In this document: positions 28,261-44,886 of the stretch, one piece after another
Layout of the letters: each line of letters opens with the position of its first letter
Position numbering within the stretch: position 1 is the stretch's first letter
DNA from: Candidatus Omnitrophota bacterium
GTDB lineage: Bacteria; Omnitrophota; Gorgyraeia; Gygaellales; Profunditerraquicolaceae
Assembly: GCA_041662125.1 (NCBI GenBank)
Contig: JBAZTA010000003.1
Span: 135,992 to 199,991, forward strand
DNA: 64,000 bases
Reading direction: 5' to 3'
Position numbers and translations under genes: made by a program
Notes under the pieces: model-generated
Seen by the model: only the letters and a program-made list of their open reading frames with translations
Databases searched by the model: none
Told to the model about the DNA's origin: nothing

Positions 28261-28551
28261 TTATTCTTTTTCTTCGTTCTGCTCTTCTTTTTTTTTCTTC
28301 TTCCTCTCTTCTCTGCTTTGAGTCCCTTTATCGTTTTTCTCAATTTTTACAATATATTCCCTTTGAATGAGCATCCTCCAGTATGTTTCTTTGTTAAAAA
28401 GGATAATAAAATCAGGCTGGTCACTTAATATAATGCCGTCGGCCGATGAATTATTACTTAAAAATACGGTGTCGGCAAAGCTGCTCTTACTAAAAATCAA
28501 CGAGCCAAACAGAAGTGCGAACAAAAATATTTTCTTGAATTTTAGGTGCAT
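28261..28551 (-). CDS. hypothetical small secreted protein with Lys/Glu-rich tail
   Basis: 96 aa. A signal peptide 'LFALLFGSLIFSKSSFA' is followed by a highly charged C-terminus (KKKKKEEQNEEKE). Confidence 0.3.
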   Translation of the reverse strand: MHLKFKKIFLFALLFGSLIFSKSSFADTVFLSNNSSADGIILSDQPDFIILFNKETYWRMLIQREYIVKIEKNDKGTQSREERKKKKKEEQNEEKE

Positions 28552-28563: not shown

Positions 28564-29748
28564 TTAAAGTATAAATCTTTGCAATATGCTTTGTCCAAAA
28601 GACGCGCACCACGCGCTATCTAAAATTACCCCTTTTTTCAAGATTGTCAGGAATACTCCTATAAAAATAAAAGGAGTTAAGGGGAAAGTTTTGCTGATAC
28701 TTATTTCAGAAAGCCCCGGCTCATTGAGCCCAATTTCCTTAATATACGCAGCTTGTTCTTCTGTTAATCCGTCAGGGTAAAACTTCTCATTGACCCCCTT
28801 TATCTTGAAAATCTCGCAAATTTTTATCATGGATTCATGCGATAAGAGCATTCCTTTACGCAGGTCATCTTTCTTTATTTTCTTTACCTCGCGCGTATTG
28901 AGGAAAGATTGAATCAGAATCGAAAAAATCGTACAGGCCAAGAGAAAAAAGGTAAAATTTTGGAATAAGCCTTGTATTACACGTGGTATGTCTTTTGCCT
29001 CAAAGACAATGATCGCTAAAAACACTATATTGAGAGCTGTGGTGGCGATAATAACATTTTTCTTTTTGAACAAAACAGTTAACTTTTGGAAACCAAAACT
29101 GATGATGATGCAGATAATCCCGAACAATGATGAAAAGCGGCTTTGCGCTTTCATGAAACCGATAAGCCGTATGATATTCATGAACATGAATATACTCAAA
29201 TATCCTAATGCGATCTTAGCGTAATCTTTTTTATGAACATTAAGCAAGTTTATTCTTTCAACCGCATACGTAATGCTTGCTTTAAAATTGAGTTGTATAA
29301 GGGATATTCCTTTAAGAAAAACAAACAACTGCAGCACGAGCTTTATGAATATTTCTAGGATAATAAATAAAAAGACGATACTAAAAGCGTTAGCGAGTAA
29401 AATGAATGAAGGGAAATTAGGGATAGGATAGCTGTCGCCGTAATAGTGCAGAGGAACTAAGAATGAAAAGAGCATAAAAAGTTTGGCGTCACCTGCTGAC
29501 CAAAAACCAAAATACCAGATAAAAAATGATACGGTGCATGAAATGGCAACATTTTTTAGAAAAATTGAAACAGGGAAAATAACAGGGGCATGAAAGAATA
29601 TAATTTTGGCCGCGAGTATACAATAACAAATGATGCCGCTTAAGGCCCCGTAGATAATATATTTATTTTTAACTTTACCTATGCGCAGGTCATCAAATGA
29701 AGTGATAGCTCCCAGTATAAATAATATTGCCAAGAAGAGAAAATCCAT
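28564..29748 (-). CDS. A24-family (prepilin peptidase / TadV-CpaA-like) membrane protein with C-terminal extension
   Basis: 394 aa, polytopic. Two aspartyl-protease motifs typical of A24 peptidases are present: 'ITSFDDLRIGKVKNKY' (first Asp) and 'WSAGDAKLFMLF' (GxGDxKL, second Asp). It lacks the PilD N-terminal Cys box. A roughly 100-aa soluble C-terminal tail follows. Confidence 0.5.
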   Translation of the reverse strand: MDFLFLAILFILGAITSFDDLRIGKVKNKYIIYGALSGIICYCILAAKIIFFHAPVIFPVSIFLKNVAISCTVSFFIWYFGFWSAGDAKLFMLFSFLVPLHYYGDSYPIPNFPSFILLANAFSIVFLFIILEIFIKLVLQLFVFLKGISLIQLNFKASITYAVERINLLNVHKKDYAKIALGYLSIFMFMNIIRLIGFMKAQSRFSSLFGIICIIISFGFQKLTVLFKKKNVIIATTALNIVFLAIIVFEAKDIPRVIQGLFQNFTFFLLACTIFSILIQSFLNTREVKKIKKDDLRKGMLLSHESMIKICEIFKIKGVNEKFYPDGLTEEQAAYIKEIGLNEPGLSEISISKTFPLTPFIFIGVFLTILKKGVILDSAWCASFGQSILQRFIL

Positions 29749-29802
29749 TATTAAAACTTCTGATAAACCATCAGAGAACCGGCCTGATCCATGGAAGCGG
29801 TA

Positions 29803-30141
29803 TTACCATTGTCCGTGAGAGCCATGAGAGCCATGAGAGCCGTGAGAGCCGTGAGAACCGTGTGAGCCGTGAGAGCCATGTGAGCCGTGAGAGCCGTGAG
29901 AGCCGTGAGAGCCGTGAGAACCATGTGAAACGTGCCTTCCGGTGACAGGGTCATTATCCATATAGGAAGTCTGTGTATACGGTTGTGCCGCTGCCTGTTT
30001 TTGTATGAAGCTATTGACCATCCCCAATGTTAAGAGGATCCCCGCGCTTAAACGTAAAGCGTTTTTTCTGGTAATCTTAGCTTCTTCACTGTTTAAAAAC
30101 ATTTTTAAGTCTTTTTTAACTTTAGGGAAATCTTTTTTCAT
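29803..30141 (-). CDS. membrane-anchored His-Xaa-Ser tandem-repeat protein (HxsA-like)
   Basis: 112 aa. An N-terminal signal/TM segment 'LRLSAGILLTLGMVNSF' is followed by VSHG plus 12 perfect SHG repeats and ends ...GQW. It is encoded by a 9-bp DNA tandem repeat and is the only frame with a start codon and a signal peptide. The stop of the upstream gene overlaps its ATG (TGACATG). Confidence 0.6.
   Translation of the reverse strand: MKKDFPKVKKDLKMFLNSEEAKITRKNALRLSAGILLTLGMVNSFIQKQAAAQPYTQTSYMDNDPVTGRHVSHGSHGSHGSHGSHGSHGSHGSHGSHGSHGSHGSHGSHGQW
29815..29931. repeat. 9-bp tandem repeat (about 13 units of GTGAGAGCC and variants) encoding (Ser-His-Gly)n
   Basis: Direct reading: gtgagagcc / atgagagcc / gtgagaacc / gtgtgagcc units head-to-tail. 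All three plus-frames and three minus-frames give repetitive peptides. Only the minus frame (GSH) is part of a full ORF. Confidence 0.9.
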
Positions 30142-30142
30142 G

Positions 30143-30886
30143 TCAGTTAACGCCTCCTTTTATTTGCTCTTGCTCACCAGGATTGTTAGTGATTATTTCT
30201 CTTAATTTAGATTCATCGAATTCTTGGGTGAGAGGGTCATAACTGAACTGTTGATATATTTGTTTTTTTACATCTTCAAACAGGGTAATAATCTGTTCTT
30301 CGGAAAAGCCGGCTTGCTTTTTTTGTTCATAAAAGATCGGCCACGATCCAAGAGCTTGCTGCATTCTTTCTTTATACGCTTTGAGCCTTTCTTGCATCAA
30401 TTGTTCAGCGATTTCTTCTGGCTGTTGCGCCAGAGAGTTTTGCAAAGTTGAAGCGCTGGTTATTTCTTCGCATGTGGAATTGATCTTAGTTTTACAGGCG
30501 TACTTTCCTTTATTACAAATATAGCGCATAGTGATAAGCTCTTTTTTACAGTTGTCACAGGGTTCAAAGCTTGCTTTTTTATCAGCAGAGGTATAAATGA
30601 TCATTTTTAAAGAATTATCGTTTCTATCGAGCAGTTTCTTTTCTTCTTTCGACAACGTATCTACCCAGGTTGTCGAGAGGCGTTCATCGGCAATATAGCC
30701 TTCTCTTACTTCTGATAAAGGTAAACCGCAAACAGGGCATTTTGTGATCATCTTGTGGTCAATTTGGACGAGCGTGTCGGTAGGGCAGCCTTGAATTCTC
30801 GATTCAGCAGCACAGAAAGTGATATTTGTTAGGACAATACAGGCCAATACAAAACATTGATAGAGTCTAAACTGATTCTTTTGCAT
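30143..30886 (-). CDS. Cys-rich secreted protein with C-terminal Gln/Glu-rich helical region, hypothetical
   Basis: 247 aa. A signal peptide is followed by CxxC pairs 'CPTDT...CPVCG' and 'CDNCKK...CNKGKYAC...C'. It is translationally coupled to the repeat protein. Confidence 0.45.
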   Translation of the reverse strand: MQKNQFRLYQCFVLACIVLTNITFCAAESRIQGCPTDTLVQIDHKMITKCPVCGLPLSEVREGYIADERLSTTWVDTLSKEEKKLLDRNDNSLKMIIYTSADKKASFEPCDNCKKELITMRYICNKGKYACKTKINSTCEEITSASTLQNSLAQQPEEIAEQLMQERLKAYKERMQQALGSWPIFYEQKKQAGFSEEQIITLFEDVKKQIYQQFSYDPLTQEFDESKLREIITNNPGEQEQIKGGVN

Positions 30887-30900
30887 ACGTTGCCCTTTCT

Positions 30901-31113
30901 TTATTTTTCCGTCGCCGCTAAAGATAAAACATAATTTGAGAATTCATCTTTTACGAAAGGCCTGAGTTCTTTTTTTCTAATGTTATCAATCGTAACGATG
31001 ATCCGGCTTTTTTTGTTTTGCACCATAAAATCAGCAAGCCCCCGGTAATCTTTTATTGCTTTTTTGACAGAAGCCAGCGGATAAAAGTCTTCAGCAAAAG
31101 TGATTTTTAGCAT
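30901..31113 (-). CDS. small hypothetical protein (70 aa)
   Basis: No signal peptide. Its start overlaps the stop of the upstream gene by 7 nt. 'FSNYVLSL' weakly resembles the motif in the upstream neighbour. Confidence 0.35.
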   Translation of the reverse strand: MLKITFAEDFYPLASVKKAIKDYRGLADFMVQNKKSRIIVTIDNIRKKELRPFVKDEFSNYVLSLAATEK

Positions 31114-31556
31114 TTTTTTGGCTTTCGTTTTTTTGCCTGCGCAGTTTTATGTTTTTCTTCCCAGGGTATCGCTATCTTTAAAGGGTCTTCTTCCCAGTCC
31201 TGCTCAAGGCCTATTTCTTGCTGGCCTTCGAAAGTTGTTTTCTCAACAGGCGCAGAAGCCTGTGAGAAAAACAAAGCGGTTTTTATGATATGTTCCCGGA
31301 TATCTTTATTGCGCAGTGCGATATTGTAACGCAGCGTATTACTGATAAGCTCATTTTTAAAACTTTCTCGTAAATCGGCAAGTGATACATGGGAATCCTT
31401 GGGGGTCAAGCAAACATTGATATCATTGCTTTGTCCGGGAAGTTTTTCCAAGAAAGCATACGTGTCGTTTAAAAACTGACAACAGGTAGTAATAACCGCT
31501 TCTTTAGAAAAGATATCGCTTGATAATTTAAGTTCAATCGTTTTTGTTTTTTTCAT
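31107..31556 (-). CDS. hypothetical protein with 'LNDTYAFLE' motif (possible HxsD-like accessory protein)
   Basis: 149 aa, cytoplasmic. 'CCQFLNDTYAFLEKL' near the N-terminus resembles the motif I recall as the HxsD family signature (LLNDYxLRE). The C-terminus is Lys-rich. Confidence 0.4.
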   Translation of the reverse strand: MKKTKTIELKLSSDIFSKEAVITTCCQFLNDTYAFLEKLPGQSNDINVCLTPKDSHVSLADLRESFKNELISNTLRYNIALRNKDIREHIIKTALFFSQASAPVEKTTFEGQQEIGLEQDWEEDPLKIAIPWEEKHKTAQAKKRKPKKC

Positions 31557-31574
31557 AAATGCTCCATTCTTTTT

Positions 31575-32123
31575 TTAATGGCACAGCATATATCCGGATG
31601 TATCTAATAAACCTGGATTAGCGATAACAAAAGGACTAACGGGAGAACCACCTAAGGTGAACACATTGATCACATGCATGAACGCAGGGTCACACCAAGT
31701 AACCCTTGCTCCCGGGTCAATTCCTGAAAGCGGAACCACCGGGAACGGGTCATATCTAACAAATCTTGGTTGAATAAACAAAGGGAACCATAAACCTGAA
31801 CTTGTGTAATAGAATAAAGCGTGATAATTAATGTCATAGTATATTTGGCCATCTGCCGGATTTGTGGGAGGGGTTGGCCTTGGATCTAGTGATAGTACCC
31901 CATCATCAACCAAATATGCAGCACCGCTATTGGGATCGCGAGAGCGTCCTACGGTCATTCTATGTGCTTTTACCGTGTCATATAAACCGGTGAGGCTCGG
32001 ATAATACGTTGTTATTACTATTTCTTCTTGGGCTGATGCTTGAGTAATGCAAAGGATTATTAAACTTATAATAGGAATAATTGTTAAGAATATGTTTTCT
32101 TTGTTTAAGTATTTGATGAGCAT
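31575..32123 (-). CDS. secreted protein, paralog 1 of a three-member local family (unknown function)
   Basis: 182 aa. Signal peptide ...'ITQASA'. The mature N-terminus 'QEEIVITTYYPS...YD' and the motifs 'DGVLSLDPR', 'GQIYYD', 'FYY', 'WFP' and two Cys are shared with the next two genes. Confidence 0.6.
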   Translation of the reverse strand: MLIKYLNKENIFLTIIPIISLIILCITQASAQEEIVITTYYPSLTGLYDTVKAHRMTVGRSRDPNSGAAYLVDDGVLSLDPRPTPPTNPADGQIYYDINYHALFYYTSSGLWFPLFIQPRFVRYDPFPVVPLSGIDPGARVTWCDPAFMHVINVFTLGGSPVSPFVIANPGLLDTSGYMLCH

Positions 32124-32140
32124 AGGTTAAAAGTATTTTG

Positions 32141-32608
32141 TTAAATACAAATCAAAAATCCGTTTGGCGGAGGAGCGCTAAAATCTGCCCTGTTTTTATT
32201 CAAATCAAGTACATTCACTGCCGTTGCGTTTTGCAAGCCCAATGGGTTTATTGGTGCATTACAAGAAAACGTTCCTGGGCCATATGGTATCTCACGGGCA
32301 CTACCCAAAGCCGGCAGCCATATGGTTGCATTAAAAAAATAAAATGATCTGTCTATTCCATAGTAAAAGATATCTCCCTGTCTGGGGGCAAGTCCGGGAA
32401 AAGTTGCGCGAGGCCCAAAACTAAGAACACCATCTCTGGTTAGTTCAGGAGTACTATTTGTGCCAATGCCTACTTTATTTGCGATAAGCCTGTCATACGC
32501 TGCGTTCGCAGAAGGAAAATATGTTGTGATGTAAATATCTTCAGCAAAGCCGTACTGCGCAATTCCTACTATACAAAATAATAAGAGTAATGATAGTCTT
32601 TTTGTCAT
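32141..32608 (-). CDS. secreted protein, paralog 2
   Basis: 155 aa. Signal peptide ...'AQYGFA'. Mature 'EDIYITTYFPS...YD...DGVLSFGPR...GDIFYYG...FYFF...WLP...PPPNGFLICI'. Confidence 0.6.
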   Translation of the reverse strand: MTKRLSLLLLFCIVGIAQYGFAEDIYITTYFPSANAAYDRLIANKVGIGTNSTPELTRDGVLSFGPRATFPGLAPRQGDIFYYGIDRSFYFFNATIWLPALGSAREIPYGPGTFSCNAPINPLGLQNATAVNVLDLNKNRADFSAPPPNGFLICI

Positions 32609-32622
32609 TTTCTCATGAGCCT

Positions 32623-33072
32623 CTAATCACACAGTAACCATCCTCCGCCCGGTGGCGGAGCCAACCAATTTACTAACCGTCCGGTTTGATCCATGACATT
32701 AATTAAAGTCATACCATATGGGCAACCAGACCATAAGTCAGGGGTATACACTTTCATAGCAACTCCGGGATTTGCATACCACCGTGTCCCATCATTATAA
32801 AAAAACATTAACAACGCGCTATTATAATAAATACTGCCTGGAATATTCCCCGGAGGAGCTGCAACCCTGGGAGAAAAAGCAATTGTTGCATCATCTGAAT
32901 TATTATGCATAGCACTTTCGCCGACATTAAGTTTGTGTACTTTAATGGAGTCGTAACTCCCAAAAGGCGAAGGATGGTAAGTGCTGATAACAATATCTTT
33001 ATCAGTAGCAAAGCTGATCGAATAATAACATAATAAAACAGCTAAACTTATGTAAATTTTACGCATATGCAT
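32623..33072 (-). CDS. secreted protein, paralog 3 (start trimmed to internal Met preceding the signal peptide)
   Basis: The ORF-track frame runs to 33258 but overlaps the upstream rSAM gene. The probable start is 'MHMRKIYISLAVLLCYYSISFA' (ATG 33070-33072 or 33064-33066). Mature 'TDKDIVISTYHPS...YD...PGSIYYN...FFY...W...APPPGGGWLLCD'. Confidence 0.55.
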   Translation of the reverse strand: MHMRKIYISLAVLLCYYSISFATDKDIVISTYHPSPFGSYDSIKVHKLNVGESAMHNNSDDATIAFSPRVAAPPGNIPGSIYYNSALLMFFYNDGTRWYANPGVAMKVYTPDLWSGCPYGMTLINVMDQTGRLVNWLAPPPGGGWLLCD

Positions 33073-33103
33073 AGTAATTAATATATCAAATAACCGATTC
33101 TTG

Positions 33104-34057
33104 TCAATTATTTTTATGAGGCACTGTAATAGCTTTAAACTCTTTAACACCAAACTGTTTCGTATAATATTTCCAGGCCCCTTCACAATATAAATTATAC
33201 ACGCAAATTTTACAACAAGCAAATTTAATTTTTGAGTCTCTTCTCCTTCTTTTTTCAATAAAAAATGATTCTCTTCCCCGAGTGCCTATCGCTGTTTTCC
33301 TTTGTCCATCCTTGAATTCACCAACTATACCTTGAAAATTCGGGATCCCGGCTAATATGCAAAAGGGGATATCTCCCACAGTGAGATTAAGTTTCATCTT
33401 TTTCGCAAGGCCAACTGCTGCAGTAAGATGCTTTTTTATTGCAGTATAGCGAGGTACTAATAAATCAAAATTACGCCGTCCTCTTCCTTCCGGATTAATA
33501 AAGTTTAGCCGAAAATCCCTTAATTGGAACTTTTGGGAGAAAAAGCGGATCATTTTCGAAAGATCACGGTAATTTAATTTATTAATAACTATATTGAGCA
33601 ATATATTATCTTTAATGATCCCTTTTTTTCTGAGTATTGCTAAATAACGCAGCCCTTGTGTTTTTTCAGAAAAGCCTCCTTTTACCGCGGTCAGAAAATC
33701 TTCGGTTGCGGCTTTATGGCTGTGAATAGAAATATAAAAGCGTGACGCTCCGGCCTGTATGATTTTTTTGAGGAATACCGCGTCAGAGTAACGCCTGCCG
33801 TTGCTGACCAAATAAACACCCTGGAATCCGAGCTTTCTGGCAAAGAGAATCGATTCTACGAGATGGGGGTATAGTGTCGGCTCACCTCCCAGAAAACCGA
33901 TCATACGGTAGCCCTGTTTGTAAAAATCCAGGAGCTCTTTTTTTACTTCTGTGACAGGGATGAATTTCTGCTCTTCGCGCGGGACGTCACTCATGCAAAA
34001 TTTGCAGCGGTTATTACAGAGAAACCCCAGGTTAATTTCAGCTTTTTTATCTTCCAT
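33104..34057 (-). CDS. radical SAM enzyme, roughly 300-aa 'type B' (N-terminal CxxxCxxC, C-terminal CxxC...C cluster)
   Basis: 317 aa. 'CNNRCKFC', 'LGGEPTL', and C-terminal 'CCKICVYNLYCEG' are present. Confidence 0.8.
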   Translation of the reverse strand: MEDKKAEINLGFLCNNRCKFCMSDVPREEQKFIPVTEVKKELLDFYKQGYRMIGFLGGEPTLYPHLVESILFARKLGFQGVYLVSNGRRYSDAVFLKKIIQAGASRFYISIHSHKAATEDFLTAVKGGFSEKTQGLRYLAILRKKGIIKDNILLNIVINKLNYRDLSKMIRFFSQKFQLRDFRLNFINPEGRGRRNFDLLVPRYTAIKKHLTAAVGLAKKMKLNLTVGDIPFCILAGIPNFQGIVGEFKDGQRKTAIGTRGRESFFIEKRRRRDSKIKFACCKICVYNLYCEGAWKYYTKQFGVKEFKAITVPHKNN

Positions 34058-34994
34058 GAAGTATTTTGGCCGTGATCGCTTCTTTACTCACAAATACAGG
34101 ATGAAGCTCTTTTGAGGAATAAAATTTGTCCATTTGATATAACCCGGGGCATATGCTGTCAAGGAAACAGGTTTTGCAGCAGTCTGTTTTGTCATATCCC
34201 CATTTTTTCTTCCAATCGTTTTCATAATGAAAACCGCGGTTGTCCAGGAAAAATGTTACGCGGTTCTCTTTTTTTACCAGTTTTCTGGTCTCATTGAGGA
34301 CGTGTTCAAACTCGGGAAGCGCGCAGAGCGGCAAGCGCTCTACTCTGAAAGTTTTATGGTGTTTTTCCAGGAATACCAGCGCACGGTGCAATGATAATTC
34401 AATTTCTGACAAGCGGGGTATCGTATCCGGATTTTCCTTGGCCCTGTCCATGTAGGGGTCAAGGTTATTCCAAACAAAATGGCGCACAAAGGAGAAGTTT
34501 TTTACGATCCAGGATACATTTTCATACAAATGGCCGGCATTATAGTGGTTGATCACGATATTCATATCAACTCTGATCTTTGGAAGTTTCTCTAAATTCC
34601 TTAAAGCTTTAATAATATTGTCCAGGGCGTCTTTGTTTTGAGTTAAAAACGATTGGATCTCTTTTTTATACGAATAAAAAGAAAGATGCAACTGCTGTAA
34701 TCCCGCTTTTTTCAACTCCAGCAGGTAAGAATAATCGGCTAACTTCTGCCCATTTGTGATGATACGGCAGGGCATGTTTTTTACCCGGCAATAGCTGATT
34801 AAATCACCTAAGAACGGAGAAAGTGTTGGTTCTCCCCCGGTAAATATGATCCCATCATAGGATTTCTTAATATAGAGATCGATTAATTTCTTGCCTTGTT
34901 CAAGGGTGAGTGTTTTTTTTGTCGGAGGATTCGAACAAAAACGGCATTGCTGGTTACATTCCCTGGTGAGTTGGATATACGCTAATGACGCCAC
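34047..34994 (-). CDS. radical SAM enzyme, type B paralog
   Basis: 315 aa. 'CNQQCRFC', 'FTGGEPTL', and C-terminal 'CCKTCFLDSICPG' are present. Confidence 0.8.
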   Translation of the reverse strand: MASLAYIQLTRECNQQCRFCSNPPTKKTLTLEQGKKLIDLYIKKSYDGIIFTGGEPTLSPFLGDLISYCRVKNMPCRIITNGQKLADYSYLLELKKAGLQQLHLSFYSYKKEIQSFLTQNKDALDNIIKALRNLEKLPKIRVDMNIVINHYNAGHLYENVSWIVKNFSFVRHFVWNNLDPYMDRAKENPDTIPRLSEIELSLHRALVFLEKHHKTFRVERLPLCALPEFEHVLNETRKLVKKENRVTFFLDNRGFHYENDWKKKWGYDKTDCCKTCFLDSICPGLYQMDKFYSSKELHPVFVSKEAITAKILHGR

Positions 34995-35037
34995 AGTGTT
35001 GACCTCGCTTTGTACATGTTTTGATCTGACAGTTGGC

Positions 35038-36231
35038 TCATATGTTTTTTAAGATCTTAAAGCCTTTTTCCCGTATCAGCCTGATAGGGGCTCCGTTGCA
35101 GTTTTTATGCGCTTTACAGAGATCGCACCTCAAGCTTTTCAAGAAAAACCTTTCATTGATAAAAAAATCCAAAAACGCGTTAATATCAATTGTGCCCTGC
35201 GTAAGAAATCGTTTGAACCTGCGCCGGTGCGTTTGAATGCAAACACCTGTTTCTTTTGACACTATTTGTTTATCTTTCTTTAGTTTGACCAGGTCGTTAC
35301 AAAAATCTTCGATAAAACAATAGCGGCATTGAGCTCCAAAGCACGGCATAAGTTCGCCTCGCTTGATAAACCGAGAAAACAGCGACATTCTTCCCCTGAT
35401 CTCATCTTTTAATTTTTCCGGGTGCTGGATCAATTCTTCAAATCCTTCCAAGAACCGGGCAGGGAACCGATTGGTCCAGATATAAATATCAGGGAACTCA
35501 TATTGCAGCTGAAAGGCTTTTTTGAGATACGGTGCGGCTGCAGGTATTGTATACAGGACTTTCTCCTTATTCTTCCAGGCAGAGCCAAACGGCGTCACTT
35601 GGAGCAGATCAAATTCGGTTATATTGCGAGAAATAAAAAATCTCATAATATCCTCCAGATGCCGATAATTGATCTTATTGATAACGATATCAATATTTAT
35701 AATCAGGCGGTTGGACTCCAATGCGTTTGTCAGTCCCGCCATTGCCTGCGCAAATGAACCTGTAACGCCTGATTGCTTCTCATAAAGCGTTTTCGTATGG
35801 CCGTGCATCGAAAAAGTTATTTCACTGACTCCCGCAGCGACTGCTTTATTGAGAAAAGACCGGTAGTAAAACATGCGGCCGTTTGTCACGACTTGGACCT
35901 GCGCATAGCCTAAGGTTTTTGCAAGTTCCACAATACGCAGGAAATGGGGATGCAGGGTAGGTTCTCCTCCTGAAAGGATAAGTTTAACAGAACCCTCAGA
36001 GATTCCCTGTTCCATTTCCTTTTTTAAGGCAAGAATGCTTCGAGAAGTTCCATTGTGATGAACGCTATCGAGGCAGAAAACGCAGTTGTTATTACAAAAA
36101 TTCGTCAATCGCAGCCAGAATTTTTTTTTCTGCGCGGCCTCTTTACGTTGCGTTATTCGAGTTTTTAACTGGTTCAAGCTCTTTATCTCCATAGAGTGAG
36201 TAATAGTGCTCAAATATCCCGCCGCAAACAC
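35038..36231 (-). CDS. radical SAM enzyme with extended Cys-rich C-terminus
   Basis: 397 aa. 'CNNNCVFC', 'SGGEPTL', and C-terminal clusters 'CFGAQCRYC...C' and 'CDLCKAHKNC' are present. An alternative start at ATG 36190-36192 would reduce the 89-nt overlap with the upstream gene. Confidence 0.75.
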   Translation of the reverse strand: MFAAGYLSTITHSMEIKSLNQLKTRITQRKEAAQKKKFWLRLTNFCNNNCVFCLDSVHHNGTSRSILALKKEMEQGISEGSVKLILSGGEPTLHPHFLRIVELAKTLGYAQVQVVTNGRMFYYRSFLNKAVAAGVSEITFSMHGHTKTLYEKQSGVTGSFAQAMAGLTNALESNRLIINIDIVINKINYRHLEDIMRFFISRNITEFDLLQVTPFGSAWKNKEKVLYTIPAAAPYLKKAFQLQYEFPDIYIWTNRFPARFLEGFEELIQHPEKLKDEIRGRMSLFSRFIKRGELMPCFGAQCRYCFIEDFCNDLVKLKKDKQIVSKETGVCIQTHRRRFKRFLTQGTIDINAFLDFFINERFFLKSLRCDLCKAHKNCNGAPIRLIREKGFKILKNI

Positions 36232-37066
36232 TCTTGTACAAACAACAACGGCATACGGCGGTCTTTATTCTTTTTCTTGTTGGACGCATGCATCTTTCTT
36301 CTTTTACATAGTTTTTTTTACCCGCGGCAAGTTCAAGCGTAAGGCGTTCATCCCAATAGAAATCGTTTGAATAACAGGCGAAATCACCTAAAATACAAGC
36401 CGGCATGCCAAAAAACCTGATAATACTTTTATGCGCATTAGCCTTTTTAATCAAAACCGGTATTTTTGTTTTGATTTCAGAGAGCCTGACGGCTAATGCT
36501 TGGTAATCGCGTAACCCTCTTCCTTCCGGAGCAAGATTCGAAAAAAGCATGTGTTTGATCTTTTTCTTCAAGAGAAATGTTTCTATTTTTTCGAGGGAAT
36601 TAAAATTAAGCCTGCTGATTACTGTGTTGCTAAAGATCCTGATCGGATAATCAGACAACCATGCTAATGCCCGGGATAGATTGCTAAAACTCCCCTGGGT
36701 TTTTACGATCATATTATGCTCTTTCGCCGAATGCCCATGGATGGAAAAACATACTTCATCAAGGTATGCGGCTACCTGTGAGCAAAACTTTTTTTCTGAA
36801 AATCTACCCCCATTAGTGCCCACGCGGATCGAATAACCCATTTTCCTGGTTTCCTGTGCCAGCTCCGTAAAAAACGGGACAAGGGTCGCTTCTCCTCCGG
36901 TAAAATGCACGCTCGTAAAGCCTTTCTTTTTCTTTTCTTTTAACAACGTAAGAATCGGATCAAGGGCAAGCGGTTGTCTGTGAAACCGGCCGATAGCATC
37001 GGAAGAACTGCAAAACACACATTTCTGTGAGCAGGTATATGAGATATGAAAGTCAATATGTTCCAT
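36143..37066 (-). CDS. radical SAM enzyme, type B paralog
   Basis: 307 aa. 'CSQKCVFC', 'FTGGEATL', and C-terminal 'CRCCLYKSVCGG' are present. Confidence 0.8.
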   Translation of the reverse strand: MEHIDFHISYTCSQKCVFCSSSDAIGRFHRQPLALDPILTLLKEKKKKGFTSVHFTGGEATLVPFFTELAQETRKMGYSIRVGTNGGRFSEKKFCSQVAAYLDEVCFSIHGHSAKEHNMIVKTQGSFSNLSRALAWLSDYPIRIFSNTVISRLNFNSLEKIETFLLKKKIKHMLFSNLAPEGRGLRDYQALAVRLSEIKTKIPVLIKKANAHKSIIRFFGMPACILGDFACYSNDFYWDERLTLELAAGKKNYVKEERCMRPTRKRIKTAVCRCCLYKSVCGGIFEHYYSLYGDKELEPVKNSNNAT

Positions 37067-37093
37067 TTAAAGATTTTAGCACAGTAATACCAT

Positions 37094-39025
37094 TCATACA
37101 CGGCATTTCGCTTTAATCCGGCAAATCTCATCCGCCCCATAAAGAGTGCGATAGCCGTTAATGATTCCCAAACACTTTTGTTTGAATAAACATTCCTTGC
37201 ATTCTTTTAGTTTGATAAATCTTTGGTCAAGCAGGTAAATCTTCATTGAGTCGGAGATTTCGTCAGCGCTTTTAATCAGGTCTTTTTGAACTTTTTGTAC
37301 AACACAAAGGGGAAAAGCGACTAAACAATTTATTCCCTGTAAAAGGCTTTTTATATCTGCGTATGAAGGCATGAGGTTTTGCAGAGGCATATTTGCTGTT
37401 TTCGGCCTTACCGGCAACGCGATAAAGGGTTTATTCATCTCTCCCTTGACAAATTCTTCTAAGGCTAAAAGATGCCCTATATTCTGTTTTAATACATTGG
37501 TATGGATATACGTGCGCGCGCCGTATTCTGCCGCGTTTTTTATCCCCCGTAAGACTTTCCGGTAACTGCCCCTGGTTCCAACAATAGTATCATGAACGCG
37601 CGGGTCATTGGAAAAAAGCGGAAGTGAGAATGAACTGGCCCCCCGCTGAATGAGGCAACGCGTAAACGCCTTATCTGCCAAGCATTCCCCGGAGGTCATG
37701 ATCTCTATAGTTTCAAAGCCGTTGGTTTTTGCAAGTTCGACTACTTCAAATATATCGTCATATAAAAGAGGATCGTTGCCGATAACGCAGAGCTTTTTCA
37801 CGCGCAGGACTCTGTTTTCTTTAAGCTTTATTTTGATCCTTAACAGGTCAGCCTGCCCTTCCCCTTGTTTTTTGGTACAAAAGATGCAATCGTTCGCGCA
37901 GGGCCCATCGATGTATAAAAATAAAGAATTGATGCTTAATTGTTTGCTCTGCTCTTTTTGAAGCTTGAAAGCACCTCGTATGAACGGGATGAGCGCAGGA
38001 TGTTCATTCGAGCGTAAGGCTTCCTGAGGAGCTGCGTTAAAGAAATCATCGAGTGTAATCCCTAAGTCAATATTATTATCTAAGATGTCACGTTGCTTCA
38101 AAGAGCAGGCTTTATTAAATATTTTATACAAGCTGTATTTGGTTTTAAAGAACGAATCAATGTGTTGTTCCTGAAAGACATCTCCCAGGAAATAATATTT
38201 GCGTAACTCAGGGAATGTTTTCTCCATAAAAATAGCGGCGTCAAAATACATCTTGCCGTCTGTATCTACTAATATTTCCTGGCTCAACATCGTAGGTTCG
38301 CAGTGGTTGGTAAAATTCATCAGAAAAGAACTGCTTGCGGGCAGAGCGCGTATTTTGGCAAGTTCATTTATGAGCCGGTCTTTTTCATCCTTGAGCCAGC
38401 GTATGCCGGTCTGATAACAGAGTTGGATCCTCTCCACCGCATGTGTTCGCAGGAAACATATACTCTTTAATAATTCAGTTGTGGTATCCGGGGCCACGAC
38501 CATATTGACAAAAAAAGGGATACCGGATTTCTTCAGGCATTCTAAATTAGCCAGGAGCGGCCCATAATAATCCTGTTTATGCAAAGCAAACCGGTGCCGC
38601 AAAGTCAAGCGCCGGCCTCCGTCTAAAGAAAACATGATCTCGACCGGATATTTTTTAAGGAAGCTGATTTTTTTACTATCAAGGAGCAGGCCGTTCGTGG
38701 TTATCATAAAGGTGATCTTTTTTTTTCGTTTGAACGCCTGTTTTTGCGCGTATACAATTGCATCTTTGATGAAATCCCATTGTAATAACGGTTCCCCTCC
38801 CCAAAACCTAAGCCTGCATTCCGCTTCGTGAGTGCTTAAAAGTAGCGCTACCGCTTTGCGTAAGACAGGCCTGGTCATTGATGAGCTTGTGCGTCGTATT
38901 TCGCAATAATCACAGTTTAATTGGCAACGATAGGTACACATGATCATCAGGCTGTTAACGTACGTATGGTGTTGGGGTTCTAAAGAATCTCTCGTTATAT
39001 CAATAGTCAGGGTTTTTTTCTGCAT
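37094..39025 (-). CDS. double radical SAM fusion protein (type A N-domain plus type B C-domain)
   Basis: 643 aa. N-domain 'CTYRCQLNCDYC' and 'WGGEPLL' is a paralog of the 39970..41187 ORF. C-domain 'CANDCIFC' with terminal 'CKECLFKQKCLG' is a paralog of the 300-aa type B enzymes. Confidence 0.8.
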   Translation of the reverse strand: MQKKTLTIDITRDSLEPQHHTYVNSLMIMCTYRCQLNCDYCEIRRTSSSMTRPVLRKAVALLLSTHEAECRLRFWGGEPLLQWDFIKDAIVYAQKQAFKRKKKITFMITTNGLLLDSKKISFLKKYPVEIMFSLDGGRRLTLRHRFALHKQDYYGPLLANLECLKKSGIPFFVNMVVAPDTTTELLKSICFLRTHAVERIQLCYQTGIRWLKDEKDRLINELAKIRALPASSSFLMNFTNHCEPTMLSQEILVDTDGKMYFDAAIFMEKTFPELRKYYFLGDVFQEQHIDSFFKTKYSLYKIFNKACSLKQRDILDNNIDLGITLDDFFNAAPQEALRSNEHPALIPFIRGAFKLQKEQSKQLSINSLFLYIDGPCANDCIFCTKKQGEGQADLLRIKIKLKENRVLRVKKLCVIGNDPLLYDDIFEVVELAKTNGFETIEIMTSGECLADKAFTRCLIQRGASSFSLPLFSNDPRVHDTIVGTRGSYRKVLRGIKNAAEYGARTYIHTNVLKQNIGHLLALEEFVKGEMNKPFIALPVRPKTANMPLQNLMPSYADIKSLLQGINCLVAFPLCVVQKVQKDLIKSADEISDSMKIYLLDQRFIKLKECKECLFKQKCLGIINGYRTLYGADEICRIKAKCRV

Positions 39026-39100
39026 AGTATTTCCTTAGCCTTCCGACAGGGCATATGCTTTTATCTTTTGTTCAGGCTTATAGCTATTCTAAAACAATGA

Positions 39101-39979
39101 TTAATCTGTGAAATAACGTTTTTGCAGCCCCTTGCAGGAGTGCGCAAAACGGCAATCGACGCAAAATGGCCTTTTACTGAATAGCCTGTTGAATTTAGAC
39201 ATATAGGCTGATTTCTTTGTTTTTGCTTGGATCAAAGTATCTACTTCATGATTTTCTCTTATACTGGCCGGGTGAAAACCTTTAAGGTCGTTTTGCCTGC
39301 GGTTGGCTGATTCAGGATACAGTAAGCAGGGCGCAAAACCGCGAAAGACTATGCGAGCCTGGCGCAGGCCAAGAGTGCGTATACGGGTCAAATAATCTTT
39401 GATTTCCGGCAAACTCAAATGGCTCGCCTTGCCCTTTGGTATGATTTCTTCGGCGATTATAAAATCCCTGATTGATGCTTTATAGAGTGAAGTAATTGTT
39501 TTTTCCAAATCGCGATAATTAAAAGAGCTCAATACAGTGTTGATCCGTATCGAAATATCGAACTTTTTACGCAATGCGATAAGGTTGCGGATACCCGCTT
39601 TTGTTTCCCGGCAGCTTCCTGTTCTTTGAGTTATTCGATCATGTGTTATATCCCGTACGCTATACAAGGAAACCGCGAATTCATTGACACCAGCGATCAA
39701 TAAATCGCGGGTGAAAGCGGGGTTTTTCAATAATCGCGCGTTCGTGATGATTCCTATTGCACGAAAACCCCTTATTTTGCAGTGTTTAACTATTCGTATC
39801 AGCCCGCGCAACATCGTTACTTCCCCGCCGGTAAGGGTGATCGTCTGGCTTGTTTCTCGCGTCTTATTGATACTATGGTAAATTTGCTTAAGGGAGTTGC
39901 AACTGATAATGGCATGGAACTCATGCCGGGGGCAAAACAAACAATCATTATTGCACTTCAGGCTTAAGGTTATATCCAT
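39101..39979 (-). CDS. radical SAM enzyme, type B paralog
   Basis: 292 aa. 'CNNDCLFC', 'TGGEVT', and C-terminal 'CVDCRFAHSCKG' are present. Confidence 0.8.
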   Translation of the reverse strand: MDITLSLKCNNDCLFCPRHEFHAIISCNSLKQIYHSINKTRETSQTITLTGGEVTMLRGLIRIVKHCKIRGFRAIGIITNARLLKNPAFTRDLLIAGVNEFAVSLYSVRDITHDRITQRTGSCRETKAGIRNLIALRKKFDISIRINTVLSSFNYRDLEKTITSLYKASIRDFIIAEEIIPKGKASHLSLPEIKDYLTRIRTLGLRQARIVFRGFAPCLLYPESANRRQNDLKGFHPASIRENHEVDTLIQAKTKKSAYMSKFNRLFSKRPFCVDCRFAHSCKGLQKRYFTD

Positions 39980-41187
39980 AATTTCTTAATGAATATGCTA
40001 TATTGTGATCCAAGGTTTATGTTGTTGAGGATAATTTTCCTCATGCCTTGCCCCCCTGCACCATAGGCTCTTGATAAAAGGTAGAAATTAGTTAGTGGGC
40101 TTACGCTTAAAAGATTAATATTGCCTGCTTTTTTTACGTCTGTGACAAAGAACTTTTTTTTCATTGATTTAAAATCTTCTTCCAGGCATATCCCTGTTTC
40201 CCGGAAAATCTCTCCGTTACAGTCAACGGTGAGCTCCGCGTTTAACACGACAGGCTCTTTTCTTTCATCAGAAAAATTTAAAAACTTGATTTCTTTGTGC
40301 TTGCGCAGATAGCGAGCGATCTTCGCGGTCTCTTTAAAAAGTGTCGCTACAGCATTGTCAGGCCAGAAAACGCCAAGCGCGTAATTAGCCTGAAGTTTTT
40401 TGAACCCGAGTTTAACGAGGTATTTAAAACTTTCAAATAGTTTGCCGGCATCCTGAGGCATGAAAACGCTGATCGAATAATGAGGGAGCGTTGAATCAAA
40501 CAAAGCAGAGAAGTTCTTTGTAACAATGTCATAATAATTGTTTTCGTTTCGATGCCCCCTGTTCTTAAGTTGACGCTGTATTTCCCCGTCAATACTGCAT
40601 TCGACGCAAAAATTGTGTTTGGAGAAATAATCGATGGTTTCTTTCGTTAAACAAATGCCGTTTGTGGTCAAAAGAAAACTCACGGTTTTTTTTACAGCAG
40701 GCTTCAGGCTCCGGGCGTATGCAACGGCTTTTTTTATAAGGTCAAAGCGTAAAAGCGGTTCTCCGCCGAAAAATTGCAGTTGGATATGCCTGCGGTTACT
40801 GGTAAAGAGCAGATCTATGGATTGACGTAATACCCTCTCATCCATGGAGTCAGTGTACTTTTTCACCCGGCAGTAGCGGCAGCGCAACTGGCAGCGGTGA
40901 GTCAACAGGACGATTAACCGCTCAGGCGGCTGAAAGATCCTTTCTTCAAGCAGGCTGGCCGCAAGCATGCGCGTCCGAAGCAGCCTTTTATAAACTAAAC
41001 CCCGCAGATCATGGTATCGATTAACAAGAATTTCCAGCTGTTTTACTGTCTTGTTTGCTTTGTTTTCTAAAAGCAAACATTCTTTCTTGACCAAGAGCGA
41101 GTACAGTATGGATTCCGCGCGCTCCAGTTTTCTTATGTCAAAATCAAAGATAAATGATTGTAACAAGCCTTCAATTCGATTGACCAT
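39970..41187 (-). CDS. radical SAM enzyme, type A (stand-alone)
   Basis: 405 aa. 'LTHRCQLRCRYC' and 'FGGEPLLRFDL' are present. It aligns by eye with the N-domains of 37094..39025 and 44873..46660 and with the C-domain of 41171..43948. Confidence 0.8.
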   Translation of the reverse strand: MVNRIEGLLQSFIFDFDIRKLERAESILYSLLVKKECLLLENKANKTVKQLEILVNRYHDLRGLVYKRLLRTRMLAASLLEERIFQPPERLIVLLTHRCQLRCRYCRVKKYTDSMDERVLRQSIDLLFTSNRRHIQLQFFGGEPLLRFDLIKKAVAYARSLKPAVKKTVSFLLTTNGICLTKETIDYFSKHNFCVECSIDGEIQRQLKNRGHRNENNYYDIVTKNFSALFDSTLPHYSISVFMPQDAGKLFESFKYLVKLGFKKLQANYALGVFWPDNAVATLFKETAKIARYLRKHKEIKFLNFSDERKEPVVLNAELTVDCNGEIFRETGICLEEDFKSMKKKFFVTDVKKAGNINLLSVSPLTNFYLLSRAYGAGGQGMRKIILNNINLGSQYSIFIKKLWI

Positions 41188-43971: not shown

Positions 43972-44886
43972 CTACTCAATTACTGGTTTAAATTCAACCC
44001 AACCGTTTCGTTTTATATATGGTTCCCAGACGCCATCACAGATGGTAGCGTAAATACATTTTTCACAAGAAACCCCTTTTATTCTTTTGGGGTTCCTGCG
44101 TTCAACCCTCACATTTTTATTTTTGCTTAATAAAATCGATTCGAAGCTACCCAAGAGGTTCTCAAATCCTCTTAATACGCATGCCGGTAACCCAACGATA
44201 CCTATGCCGACCCTGCGATGTGATCTGGCATCAAGTTTTAACGCAGTAACGGAATTCTTAAAAGCTTCGGCCAAAAACGTGTAGTTAGGGCTCAAACGGT
44301 TTAAAAAAAACAATCCATTGCCAGCGGGTATAACGCAATTTACACCGATACTTTCTACAGATTTAAAACCGAGCGCTAAACGATAAAAATCAATCAGGTT
44401 AGAAGCATTTATCGCATTAAGCGTTATATTAATCCGCCAAATAAAATTGTTTGTTTGTCTTAAAATATCAAGATTCCCGCAGGCTTTCGTTGTTTGTTCA
44501 AAACTCCCCTTGGTACGGGTTAAGGCATCATGAATTTTACTGGTACTCCCATGGAGAGAGACTATTATTTCAGTAATCCCGCTTGATAACAAGGCTTTTG
44601 CATAGTGTATATAGCTCAGGCGCCTCGCGTTGGTGATCAAGCGGATGTTTGAATAACCTGCTGCCCTCGCAGTTTTTATATACTCTGTGAGAGAGTCATT
44701 GACGGTTGGTTCAGGCCCTGTGAAAATAATGTTTTTTGTCCTGCGGACGCCTTTTTTTAAAAGCTGATGAAGCTGACGGGGTGATTTCGCAGTACTGCTA
44801 TGATTAACCTTATCGATGCAAAACAAGCAATTGTTATTACAGCGGTCATTAATAATACACTGGAGCGTAACTTCATTTTGCAGCAT
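43972..44886 (-). CDS. radical SAM enzyme, type B paralog
   Basis: 304 aa. 'CNNNCLFC', 'TGPEPTV', and C-terminal 'CEKCIYATICDG' are present. Confidence 0.8.
   Translation of the reverse strand: MLQNEVTLQCIINDRCNNNCLFCIDKVNHSSTAKSPRQLHQLLKKGVRRTKNIIFTGPEPTVNDSLTEYIKTARAAGYSNIRLITNARRLSYIHYAKALLSSGITEIIVSLHGSTSKIHDALTRTKGSFEQTTKACGNLDILRQTNNFIWRINITLNAINASNLIDFYRLALGFKSVESIGVNCVIPAGNGLFFLNRLSPNYTFLAEAFKNSVTALKLDARSHRRVGIGIVGLPACVLRGFENLLGSFESILLSKNKNVRVERRNPKRIKGVSCEKCIYATICDGVWEPYIKRNGWVEFKPVIE

What the first reader, a model, noticed from the sequence alone, without database searches (positions are those of the whole stretch)
29803..30141. Perfect 9-bp tandem DNA repeat encoding a membrane-anchored (Ser-His-Gly)12 module
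Thirteen head-to-tail 9-bp units (29815-29931) encode VSHG followed by 12 exact SHG repeats. The repeat follows a signal/TM segment and ends in GQW.

His-Xaa-Ser periodicity is exactly the pattern expected for an rSAM target of the Hxs type.

Alternatively, 13 evenly spaced imidazoles would be a strong Ni/Zn/Cu-binding tail, so a metal-handling role cannot be excluded.

Because the unit is 9 bp, slipped-strand copy-number changes keep the reading frame. That makes the locus a candidate for length polymorphism between strains.

The ORF is translationally coupled (TGACATG) to the upstream Cys-rich secreted protein.
Basis: seen in the sequence. Interest (0 to 1): 0.8.

Follow-up and report, generated by a model that had tools for sequence, protein, structure and literature searches.

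The report
HxsA4 His-Xaa-Ser repeat precursor protein
The (Ser-His-Gly)13 gene is real and belongs to a catalogued family (HxsA4), the target protein of a radical-SAM "His-Xaa-Ser" modification system; here it lies in a 20-kb operon with 14 radical-SAM domains and a dedicated membrane protease, an arrangement no searchable paper describes.

Summary
A 112-aa ORF on the minus strand (29803-30141) ends in 13 exact Ser-His-Gly units followed by Gln-Trp. The DNA repeat is not perfect: there are six different 9-mers, and 7 of 13 units match the consensus.

The protein scores 87.2 bits on NCBIfam NF038313 (HxsA4, cutoff 55). It sits in one minus-strand operon (28564-48237) that also holds:
- a bona fide HxsB;
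- two HxsD-type proteins;
- ten further radical-SAM genes, giving 14 CX3CX2C motifs in 11 genes.

Two points are new here:
- The many radical-SAM paralogs are ancient and are conserved in MAGs assigned to several phyla.

Repeat number varies from 3 to 30 across 121 family members, and is 12 to 13 in the closest relatives. An independent assembly is 100% identical over 11 of the 13 units.

The canonical four-gene HXS system was shown in 2026 to block phage DNA entry. This locus is a divergent variant of it, and its chemistry and role are untested. Verdict: a new member of a known kind, of moderate interest.

The parts
29803..30141 (-). hxsA4: 112-aa precursor/effector. Conserved leader, hydrophobic segment, AAA|Q site, linker, (SHG)13, QW.
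   Evidence: ORF and translation. NF038313 HxsA4 87.2 bits against cutoff 55. Family alignment A1.
29812..29928 (-). 13 x 9-nt units encoding Ser-His-Gly. Peptide perfect, DNA degenerate with 6 variants.
30061..30141 (-). Leader n-region (residues 1-27) with the family motif K-K-D-[IL]-K-x-F-L-x-S-E-E-[GA]-K. Inferred recognition element for the maturases.
   Evidence: F15 is invariant; L16, E19 and E20 are conserved in >=90% of 37 family members. The same leader occurs on a non-repeat precursor in L011.
29986..30060 (-). Hydrophobic segment (about A28-I46) and AxA-type motif A50-A51-A52|Q53.
   Evidence: Read from the sequence and alignment A1. Cleavage is inferred, not tested.
28564..29748 (-). 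394-aa polytopic membrane protein: GxGD (A24/FlaK-type) aspartyl protease domain plus a C-terminal extension. Candidate leader peptidase.
30143..30886 (-). 247-aa secreted Cys-rich protein directly upstream of hxsA4. No family match.
   Evidence: Orthologues found only in the Omnitrophota-type loci; just 2 of 11 Cys are invariant.
30901..31113 (-). 70-aa HxsD-like protein.
   Evidence: NF038315, 56.9 bits against cutoff 41.
31107..31556 (-). 149-aa HxsD-type protein.
   Evidence: TIGR03976, 41 bits, below the cutoff of 50. The orthologue in L001 carries Pfam PF27806 HxsD.
31575..33258 (-). Three paralogous secreted proteins (31575-32123, 32141-32608, 32623-33258) with an ITTYYPSPxGxY motif and a conserved Cys pair. 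Lineage-specific accessory genes.
   Evidence: No Pfam or NCBIfam match.
33104..37066 (-). Four HxsC-like radical-SAM genes: 33104-34057, 34047-34994, 35038-36231, 36143-37066.
   Evidence: Best hits are HxsC4/HxsC, far below cutoffs. One CX3CX2C motif each.
37094..39025 (-). 643-aa fusion of an HxsB-like and an HxsC-like radical-SAM domain.
   Evidence: Two CX3CX2C motifs.
39101..41187 (-). HxsC-like (39101-39979) and HxsB/PapB-like (39970-41187) radical-SAM genes.
41171..43948 (-). 925-aa fusion: B12-binding radical-SAM domain plus HxsB-like radical-SAM domain.
   Evidence: PF02310 and PF04055. Two CX3CX2C motifs.
43972..46660 (-). HxsC4-like gene (43972-44886) and a 595-aa HxsB-like/HxsC-like fusion (44873-46660).
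   Evidence: NF038332 scores 163 and 180 against a cutoff of 500. Motifs.
46744..48237 (-). hxsB: radical-SAM/SPASM maturase, first gene of the cluster.
   Evidence: TIGR03978, 475.8 bits against cutoff 370; SPASM domain PF13186.
28261..28551 (-). 96-aa small secreted protein, last gene before gatC. Conserved in the Omnitrophota-type loci.

Best explanation
The ORF encodes HxsA4. This is the ribosomally made substrate, and probably the final effector, of an expanded His-Xaa-Ser (Hxs) radical-SAM maturation system in a Candidatus Omnitrophota genome.

Proposed mechanism:
1. The 112-aa precursor is translated from its own strong ribosome-binding site at the distal end of a ~20-kb operon. [Shown.]
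2. Its conserved N-terminal leader (KKDLKMFLNSEEAK...) is recognised in the cytoplasm by the HxsD / HxsD-like proteins together with the radical-SAM enzymes. [Inferred from the HxsC-HxsD complex of the E. coli system.]
3. HxsB, four further HxsB-like domains, eight HxsC-like domains and one B12-radical-SAM domain install covalent modifications on the 13 HxS units. The paralogs are ancient and individually conserved, so several different, sequential reactions are likely, rather than one enzyme per repeat. [Inferred; the chemistry is unknown. Precedents are the +8 Da change on SHRSS in E. coli HxsA, and His-C2 cross-links made by radical-SAM cyclophane synthases.]
4. The hydrophobic segment enters the membrane. 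The dedicated GxGD (FlaK/prepilin-peptidase-type) protease encoded immediately downstream removes the cytoplasmic leader. Signal peptidase I may also cut at AAA|Q, releasing a ~60-aa, 6.2-kDa peptide of pI ~7. [Inferred.]
5. The modified His/Ser ladder then acts in the periplasm or at the cell surface. The only experimentally supported role for any Hxs system is envelope-level blocking of phage DNA entry, so that is the leading guess. It fits this uncharged, domain-less HxsA4 only weakly.
For: - Family membership: NF038313 HxsA4, 87.2 bits against cutoff 55.
- 336 homologues share the same leader / hydrophobic segment / (SHx)n / Trp-end architecture.
- Operon partners: HxsB 475.8 against 370; HxsD_rel 56.9 against 41 and HxsD 41 bits; 14 CX3CX2C motifs in 11 genes with overlapping or short gaps.
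- The same gene set recurs around HxsA4 in MAGs assigned to Omnitrophota, Spirochaetes, Parcubacteria and Saccharibacteria.
- Window paralogs are 22-38% identical to each other. They are 42-66% identical to their one-to-one orthologues in the Spirochaetes and Parcubacteria loci.
- Canonical system: HxsB/C/D-dependent N-terminal processing, a +8 Da modification in an HxS repeat, and periplasmic action (PMC13128918).
- Synonymous variation inside the repeat, and in-frame orthologues at ~75% DNA identity, show purifying selection on the peptide.
Against: - No radical-SAM gene here reaches the curated HxsC (best 136 against 267.9) or HxsC4 (best 180 against 500) cutoffs. Their assignment rests on best-hit ranking and synteny.
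- No modification, cleavage site or localisation has been measured for any HxsA4.
- The E. coli HxsA has a peptidoglycan-binding domain and basic-residue-enriched repeats that bind DNA. HxsA4 has neither: no Lys or Arg in the repeats, and net charge ~0 at pH 7.
- The locus lies between housekeeping genes (mtaB/rsmE and gatCAB) and is syntenic in relatives. That is not typical of defence islands.
- A GxGD protease and an AxA site give two competing processing routes.
Confidence: 0.75

Rival explanations
1. The mature product is primarily a metal-binding (Ni/Zn/Cu) or pH-sensing His-rich peptide of the envelope. On this view the radical-SAM chemistry only rigidifies or tunes the imidazole array.
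For: - There are 14 His in the last 43 residues, and the calculated charge switches from ~0 at pH 7 to +9.6 at pH 5.5.
- The repeats carry no basic residues, so the DNA-binding model of the E. coli system transfers poorly.
- The chromosomal context is stable and housekeeping.
Against: - No metal transporter, hydrogenase, urease or chaperone genes lie in the operon.
- Ser is as invariant as His across the family, while the third position varies: G 52%, S 20%, A 16%. That fits an enzyme recognition motif better than a simple chelator.
- No metal-chaperone family was matched.
Confidence: 0.15
2. It works exactly like the canonical HXS antiphage system: a periplasmic effector that blocks phage genome entry.
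For: - Homologous HxsB and HxsD components, and a homologous leader (HxsA3/A4 models).
- The only experimental data for any Hxs system show antiphage activity (PMC13128918).
Against: - The canonical system has four genes and is 99.7% confined to Pseudomonadota.
- This locus has 11 radical-SAM genes, a protease, no peptidoglycan-binding domain and no basic residues in the repeats.
- PADLOC models give no defence-system match beyond generic viperin-like radical-SAM similarity.
- There are no mobile-element or defence-island neighbours.
Confidence: 0.25
3. The Gly-X-Y periodicity makes it a short bacterial collagen-like triple-helix protein.
For: Pfam Collagen PF01391 scores 30.0 bits against a gathering score of 27.2. 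There are also weak hits to the Scl/Lcl adhesin models.
Against: - In the family the 'Gly' position is Gly in only 52% of units (Ser 20%, Ala 16%), whereas Ser and His are the conserved residues.
- There is no Pro, and only 13 triplets.
- The N-terminal domain matches the HxsA3/A4 models, not collagen-like adhesins.
Confidence: 0.02
4. The repeat is an assembly artefact or a non-coding simple repeat, and the ORF is spurious.
For: A k-mer assembly (Logan) breaks inside the four identical units. The exact 112-aa product is not on record in the gene-position index.
Against: - The Logan contig is 100% identical over the other 11 units and 8.7 kb downstream.
- Interspersed synonymous variants anchor the array.
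- Orthologues with 12-13 units occur in two syntenic MAGs, and hundreds of homologues exist.
- The curated HMM match covers the non-repeat N-terminus.
Confidence: 0.02

Closest known systems
HxsA4 family (NCBIfam NF038313) with its companion models HxsD_rel (NF038315) and 'rare' HxsC4 (NF038332)
   Same: - Score above the curated cutoff.
- Same leader / hydrophobic segment / (SHx)n / C-terminal Trp architecture.
- HxsD_rel partner above cutoff.
- Records in NCBI already carry the name 'His-Xaa-Ser repeat protein HxsA4' for homologues.
   Different: - None of the 11 radical-SAM proteins reaches the HxsC4 cutoff: best 180 against 500.
- I found no paper that mentions HxsA4 or HxsC4.
- The conserved GxGD protease partner matched no NCBIfam model and is named 'hypothetical protein' in the source record.
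Canonical HxsABCD / HXS antiphage system of E. coli and Klebsiella (Li et al., Nat Commun 2026, PMC13128918)
   Same: - His-Xaa-Ser repeat substrate.
- Bona fide HxsB orthologue, HxsC-related enzymes and HxsD-type small proteins.
- An N-terminal segment that is processed, with an extracytoplasmic destination expected.
   Different: - Four genes and two radical-SAM enzymes there, against about 18-19 genes and 14 radical-SAM domains here.
[quoted passage not shown] HxsA4 here is 112 aa, has 13 uncharged SHG units and no other domain.
- The canonical system has no dedicated protease.
- The canonical system is 99.7% Pseudomonadota, whereas HxsA4 is found in MAGs labelled Omnitrophota, CPR, Elusimicrobia and DPANN.
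Three-residue-motif radical-SAM cyclophane RiPPs (triceptides: XyeB, GrrM, FxsB, HtkB/HaaB)
   Same: - Tandem aromatic-X-X three-residue motifs modified by radical-SAM/SPASM enzymes.
- There is precedent for a His-C2 to Lys-Cbeta cross-link made by HtkB (PMC11499958 abstract; PMC10114670).
   Different: - HxsB and the HxsB-like proteins score far below the cutoffs of the XyeB, GrrM, FxsB and YhhB models.
- The one measured Hxs modification is +8 Da, not the -2 Da expected of a cyclophane.
- Those systems use one enzyme per pathway, not 14 domains.
Type IV prepilin / archaeal preflagellin processing by A24 GxGD peptidases (PilD, FlaK)
   Same: - The substrate has a charged N-terminal leader followed by a hydrophobic helix.
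- The adjacent enzyme has the FlaK fold and both catalytic Asp motifs.
   Different: - HxsA4 has no G|FxxxE prepilin motif.
- The protease has a ~270-aa extra C-terminal membrane/soluble region.
- Its Pfam score is below the gathering threshold: 17.5 against 26.5.
- Cleavage has not been demonstrated.

Membership tests
HxsA4 (NCBIfam NF038313) | Whole-protein HMM score at or above the curated cutoff (55 bits) | tested here: met
   87.2 bits, E 1.1e-24, covering residues 5-112 against profile positions 2-93 of 93.
HxsA4 (NCBIfam NF038313) | Tandem His-Xaa-Ser repeats after an N-terminal leader and a hydrophobic segment | tested here: met
   13 HxS motifs. The leader motif and hydrophobic segment align with 36 family members.
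Hxs system (Haft-type His-Xaa-Ser radical-SAM system) | HxsB radical-SAM/SPASM maturase in the same locus (TIGR03978, cutoff 370) | tested here: met
   46744-48237 scores 475.8 bits.
Hxs system (Haft-type His-Xaa-Ser radical-SAM system) | HxsC radical-SAM maturase (TIGR03977, cutoff 267.9) or HxsC4 (NF038332, cutoff 500) | tested here: not met
   Best scores are 136 (HxsC) and 179.7 (HxsC4), both for 44873-46660. Eight domains have HxsC/HxsC4 as best hit, but all are sub-threshold.
Hxs system (Haft-type His-Xaa-Ser radical-SAM system) | HxsD small protein (TIGR03976, cutoff 50) or HxsD-like protein (NF038315, cutoff 41) | tested here: met
   HxsD_rel scores 56.9 for 30901-31113. TIGR03976 scores only 41 for 31107-31556, but the orthologue in L001 carries Pfam PF27806 HxsD.
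Canonical HXS antiphage system (PMC13128918) | [quoted passage not shown] | tested here: not met
   The only His-Xaa-Ser repeat-protein models matched at E<=0.1 were HxsA4 and HxsA3. There are 11 radical-SAM genes. No further domain was matched, and there is no Lys or Arg in the repeats.
Canonical HXS antiphage system (PMC13128918) | Radical-SAM-dependent covalent modification and N-terminal processing of HxsA; protection against phage | not testable with these tools
   Requires mass spectrometry and phage challenge.
Collagen triple-helix repeat (PF01391) | Conserved Gly at every third residue across homologues | tested here: not met
   The window protein scores 30.0 against 27.2. In 121 family members, however, that position is Gly in only 52% of units.
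Peptidase A24 / GxGD aspartyl membrane proteases (partner gene 28564-29748) | Two catalytic Asp (the second in a GxGD-type motif) on a FlaK/PilD-like polytopic fold | tested here: met
Cyclophane-forming radical-SAM maturases (XyeB, GrrM, FxsB, YhhB models) | Score above the curated cutoffs of those NCBIfam models | tested here: not met
   All scores are at most ~65 bits, against cutoffs of 310-450.

The most novel reading that the evidence does not exclude
HxsA4 systems may be a distinct, undescribed class of protein maturation pathway. In this reading a prepilin-like precursor has every His-Xaa-Ser unit rebuilt by a conserved assembly line of roughly 9-14 radical-SAM domains, including a B12-dependent one. 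A dedicated GxGD protease then cuts it, leaving a heavily cross-linked His/Ser ladder on the cell surface. The pathway takes ~15-20 kb in this window and at least ~10 kb in lineages known for small genomes (Omnitrophota, CPR, DPANN). That cost would suggest a central role in envelope biology, attachment or phage exclusion rather than a minor accessory trait.
Probability: 0.2. Interest if true: 0.75.

Novelty: new member of a known kind. Interest (0 to 1): 0.45.

Why it matters
- The His-Xaa-Ser systems were a bioinformatic curiosity for over a decade. In 2026 the four-gene version was shown to stop phage DNA at the envelope, but its radical chemistry is still unsolved.
- The HxsA4 variant offers a much more regular substrate: up to dozens of identical SHG units on a ~60-aa peptide.
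- It also carries a far larger, individually conserved set of radical-SAM enzymes, plus a dedicated leader protease.
- That makes it a promising system for working out what Hxs enzymes do to His and Ser.
- It is also a way to ask whether lineages known for very small genomes spend this much coding capacity (~20 kb here) on defence, metal handling or surface structure.
- For annotation, the result shows that the ~390-aa 'hypothetical' membrane protein next to HxsA4 is a GxGD protease and belongs to the system.

Tried and rejected
- **One radical-SAM domain per repeat (14 domains against 13-14 His).** Rejected. A relative with 5 units has at least 7 domains within 10 kb. Relatives with 25 and 41 units have at least 9 and at least 6.
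- **Exact-sequence lookup of the 112-aa product.** Not on record. The source was identified instead through the neighbouring membrane protein, which is 100% identical to WDL87_05980 of a Candidatus Omnitrophota MAG.
- **Genome-collection scan with the broad 37-sequence alignment.** Failed because no block was conserved enough. A 7-sequence alignment worked.
- **Exhaustive phmmer search with the 71-aa leader against 1.84 billion representatives.** Only 12 weak hits, because the query is too short for that database size. It says nothing about family size.
- **PADLOC.** No defence-system model matched beyond generic viperin-like radical-SAM similarity.
- **Homologue search with the 155-aa ITTYYPS paralog.** Returned only the protein itself.
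- **Promoter and terminator scan around the gene.** Counts were no higher than in shuffled sequence, and no terminator follows hxsA4.
- **Second HxS-type or leader-bearing ORF in the window.** None found.

Full report
**1. What is in the sequence**

The feature lies on the minus strand. ORF 29803..30141 encodes 112 aa:

MKKDFPKVKKDLKMFLNSEEAKITRKNALRLSAGILLTLGMVNSFIQKQAAAQPYTQTSYMDNDPVTGRHV(SHG)13QW.

- The 13 Ser-His-Gly units occupy 29812-29928.
- At the protein level the repeat is perfect. At the DNA level it is not.
- Six different 9-mers are used, only 7 of 13 units are TCTCACGGC, and every difference is synonymous.
- Tandem Repeats Finder reports 89% matches.
- The longest perfectly periodic stretch is four identical units (units 2-5).
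The ORF also has its own GGAGG 11 nt upstream of the ATG.

**2. Is it real?**

- The neighbouring membrane protein is 100% identical to WDL87_05980 of a Candidatus Omnitrophota MAG, on a 395,841-bp contig.
- An independent Logan assembly of run SRR18595301 (L010) is 100% identical to window 29911->21207. It begins inside the four identical units, where a k-mer assembler would be expected to break. It therefore confirms 11 of the 13 units.
- Two syntenic MAG contigs carry in-frame orthologues with 12 and 13 SHx units and a few Gly-to-Ala changes. These are L005 (labelled Omnitrophota, ~75% DNA identity across window 39980-19940) and L006.
- An assembly artefact or a spurious ORF is therefore very unlikely.

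**3. What it is**

- NCBIfam places the protein in NF038313, 'His-Xaa-Ser repeat protein HxsA4': 87.2 bits against a cutoff of 55, with the match covering the non-repeat N-terminus as well.
- HxsA3 scores below its cutoff. No other His-Xaa-Ser repeat-protein model was matched at E<=0.1.
- A search of 5.8 billion protein clusters found 336 homologues.
- Source names, where given, include Omnitrophota, Elusimicrobiales, Actinobacteria and a DPANN archaeon (Diapherotrites). A few records are already named HxsA4 by NCBI.
- The genome scan added loci from MAGs labelled Parcubacteria, Saccharibacteria and Spirochaetes.

The family architecture is constant:
- a leader with the motif [IV]KKD[IL]KxFLxSEE[GA]K;
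- a hydrophobic segment;
- a small-x-small (AxA-like) motif, often followed by His;
- a short linker;
- a run of S-H-x units;
- usually a C-terminal GQW, GSW or RGGWC.

In 121 sequences the longest run has 3-30 units, with a median of 10. The variable position is Gly 52%, Ser 20% and Ala 16%.

That variability rules out the collagen reading raised by a marginal Pfam Collagen hit of 30.0 against 27.2. Ser and His are the conserved residues, not Gly.

**4. The surrounding system**

Every gene from 48237 down to 28564 is on the minus strand, with overlaps or gaps of at most 83 nt. The cluster is bounded by mtaB/rsmE on one side and gatCAB on the other.

Gene content, in operon order:

| Coordinates | Product | Evidence |
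|---|---|---|
| 46744-48237 | Bona fide HxsB | TIGR03978, 475.8 against 370 |
| 33104-46660 | Ten further radical-SAM genes | |
| 31575-33258 | Three paralogous secreted proteins | |
| 31107-31556 | 149-aa HxsD-type protein | TIGR03976, 41 bits |
| 30901-31113 | 70-aa HxsD-like protein | NF038315, 56.9 against 41 |
| 30143-30886 | Secreted Cys-rich protein | no family |
| 29803-30141 | HxsA4 | |
| 28564-29748 | 394-aa membrane protein | |
| 28261-28551 | Small secreted protein | |

- The 11 radical-SAM genes carry 14 CX3CX2C motifs.
- Best-hit ranking and pairwise comparison divide them into five HxsB-like domains, eight HxsC-like domains and one B12-binding radical-SAM domain.
- None of the HxsC-like proteins reaches the curated HxsC or HxsC4 cutoffs.

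**5. The large radical-SAM set is a feature of the HxsA4 type, not a local amplification**

- Other HxsA4 loci, seen only within ±10 kb, have at least 7, at least 9, 9, at least 9 and at least 6 such motifs. Their repeat counts are 5, 16, 12, 25 and 41.
- So there is no one-enzyme-per-repeat rule.
- Window paralogs are 22-38% identical to each other.
- They are 42-66% identical to one-to-one orthologues in the locus labelled Spirochaetes (L008), and 45-56% in the Parcubacteria-labelled locus (L007).
- In L008, HxsA4 sits in the middle of the same enzymes and the three secreted paralogs are absent. The enzymes therefore belong to HxsA4.
- I infer several distinct, non-redundant reactions or a multi-subunit machine. 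Which it is cannot be decided with these tools.

**6. A new component: a dedicated GxGD protease**

- The 394-aa membrane protein matched no NCBIfam model and gave only a sub-threshold Pfam A24 hit.
- Its 27-member family has invariant D20, N28, W78, G86-D87-A88-K89 and L97. These include the two-Asp signature of GxGD proteases.
- Homologues lie next to HxsA4 in L001 and L004-L008.
- Distant members also sit beside radical-SAM genes in L011 and L012. L011 additionally has HxsB (383.9 against 370), HxsD and HxsD_rel.
- In L011 the precursor has the same leader but no repeat core.
- By analogy with prepilin and preflagellin processing, this protease is the obvious candidate to remove the HxsA4 leader at the cytoplasmic face.
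- The family-wide AxA motif (AAA|Q53 in the window) equally allows signal-peptidase release of a 60-aa, 6.2-kDa peptide of pI ~7.

**7. Comparison with what is known**

- The canonical HxsABCD system was characterised in 2026 (PMC13128918).
- Mature HxsA is periplasmic, binds DNA, and blocks phage genome entry.
- The system has four genes and is 99.7% confined to Pseudomonadota.
- The present locus shares HxsB, the HxsD-type proteins, the HxS motif and a processed N-terminus.
- It differs in gene number, in having a protease, and in the substrate: no peptidoglycan-binding domain, no basic residues, and 13 uniform units.
- PADLOC offers no defence-system match, and the neighbourhood is housekeeping and syntenic. 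The antiphage role therefore transfers only weakly.
- Radical-SAM cyclophane synthases provide a chemical precedent for His-centred three-residue cross-links (PMC11499958; PMC10114670). The enzymes here do not belong to those families.
- I found no paper that mentions HxsA4 or HxsC4, and no description of this cluster in Omnitrophota.

**8. Verdict**

- The gene is a new member of a catalogued family, and the family's own biology remains untested.
- The added value here is threefold: the GxGD protease partner, the ancient set of 14 radical-SAM domains, and the shared leader.
- Interest is moderate. It would rise if the pathway proves to be a distinct maturation and export route.

Noticed in passing
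window 31575-33258 (-): Three paralogous secreted proteins (about 150-180 aa mature). They have an ITTYYPSPxGxY motif right after the signal peptide and a conserved C-terminal Cys pair (...C[HID] end). No Pfam or NCBIfam family matches, and the word-indexed homologue search returned only the query itself. Relatives occur in the Omnitrophota-type Hxs loci L001, L004 and L005.
   Followed up: partly
window 41171-43948 (-): A 925-aa fusion of a B12-binding radical-SAM domain (CFNNCFFC at residue 289) with an HxsB-like radical-SAM domain. A B12/radical-SAM protein also occurs in the HxsA4 locus L004 (738 aa). This hints at a methylation-type step in the pathway.
   Followed up: no
L007 9499-9807 (MAG labelled Parcubacteria): The HxsA4 orthologue has a DNA-perfect array of about ten TCGCATGGT units. 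The window's array is degenerate. This suggests recent slipped-strand expansion in some lineages.
   Followed up: partly
L011 7445-7792 (-): A 115-aa protein carries the HxsA-type leader (LPRIKKEVCSFLSDESGRISK) but has a Cys/His-rich core without repeats. It lies next to HxsB, HxsD, HxsD_rel and the GxGD protease. The leader/protease module is therefore broader than the HxS-repeat substrates.
   Followed up: partly
L006 (CAZPNW010000010.1): This contig is labelled 'uncultured Planctomycetales' but is syntenic with the window and with the Omnitrophota-labelled L005 at ~70-77% DNA identity. The MAG's taxonomic label or its binning is probably wrong.
   Followed up: no
window 51054-53685 (-): A complete AmmeMemoRadiSam system: a fused B+A protein of 509 aa and the radical-SAM partner of 371 aa. 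It lies just upstream of rsmE/mtaB and is another uncharacterised radical-SAM system in the same window.
   Followed up: no
window 53912-57085 (-); L001 12194-20255: Type IV pilus / type II secretion genes (pilins, PilC/GspF) lie ~6 kb upstream of the Hxs cluster in the window. In L001 they lie immediately downstream of the GxGD protease (pilins, PilM, PilO, secretin). This could be coincidence or a functional link to the prepilin-peptidase-like enzyme.
   Followed up: no
window 30143-30886 (-): The Cys-rich secreted protein upstream of hxsA4 evolves fast: 58%, 40% and 28% identity to its orthologues. Only 2 of its 11 Cys are invariant, so a conserved metal or disulfide cluster is doubtful.
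   Followed up: partly
window 23663-23699: An 18-bp tandem duplication (2 copies, 84% match) within the Lys/Glu-rich C-terminal tail of the S41 (CtpA-like) protease gene.
   Followed up: no
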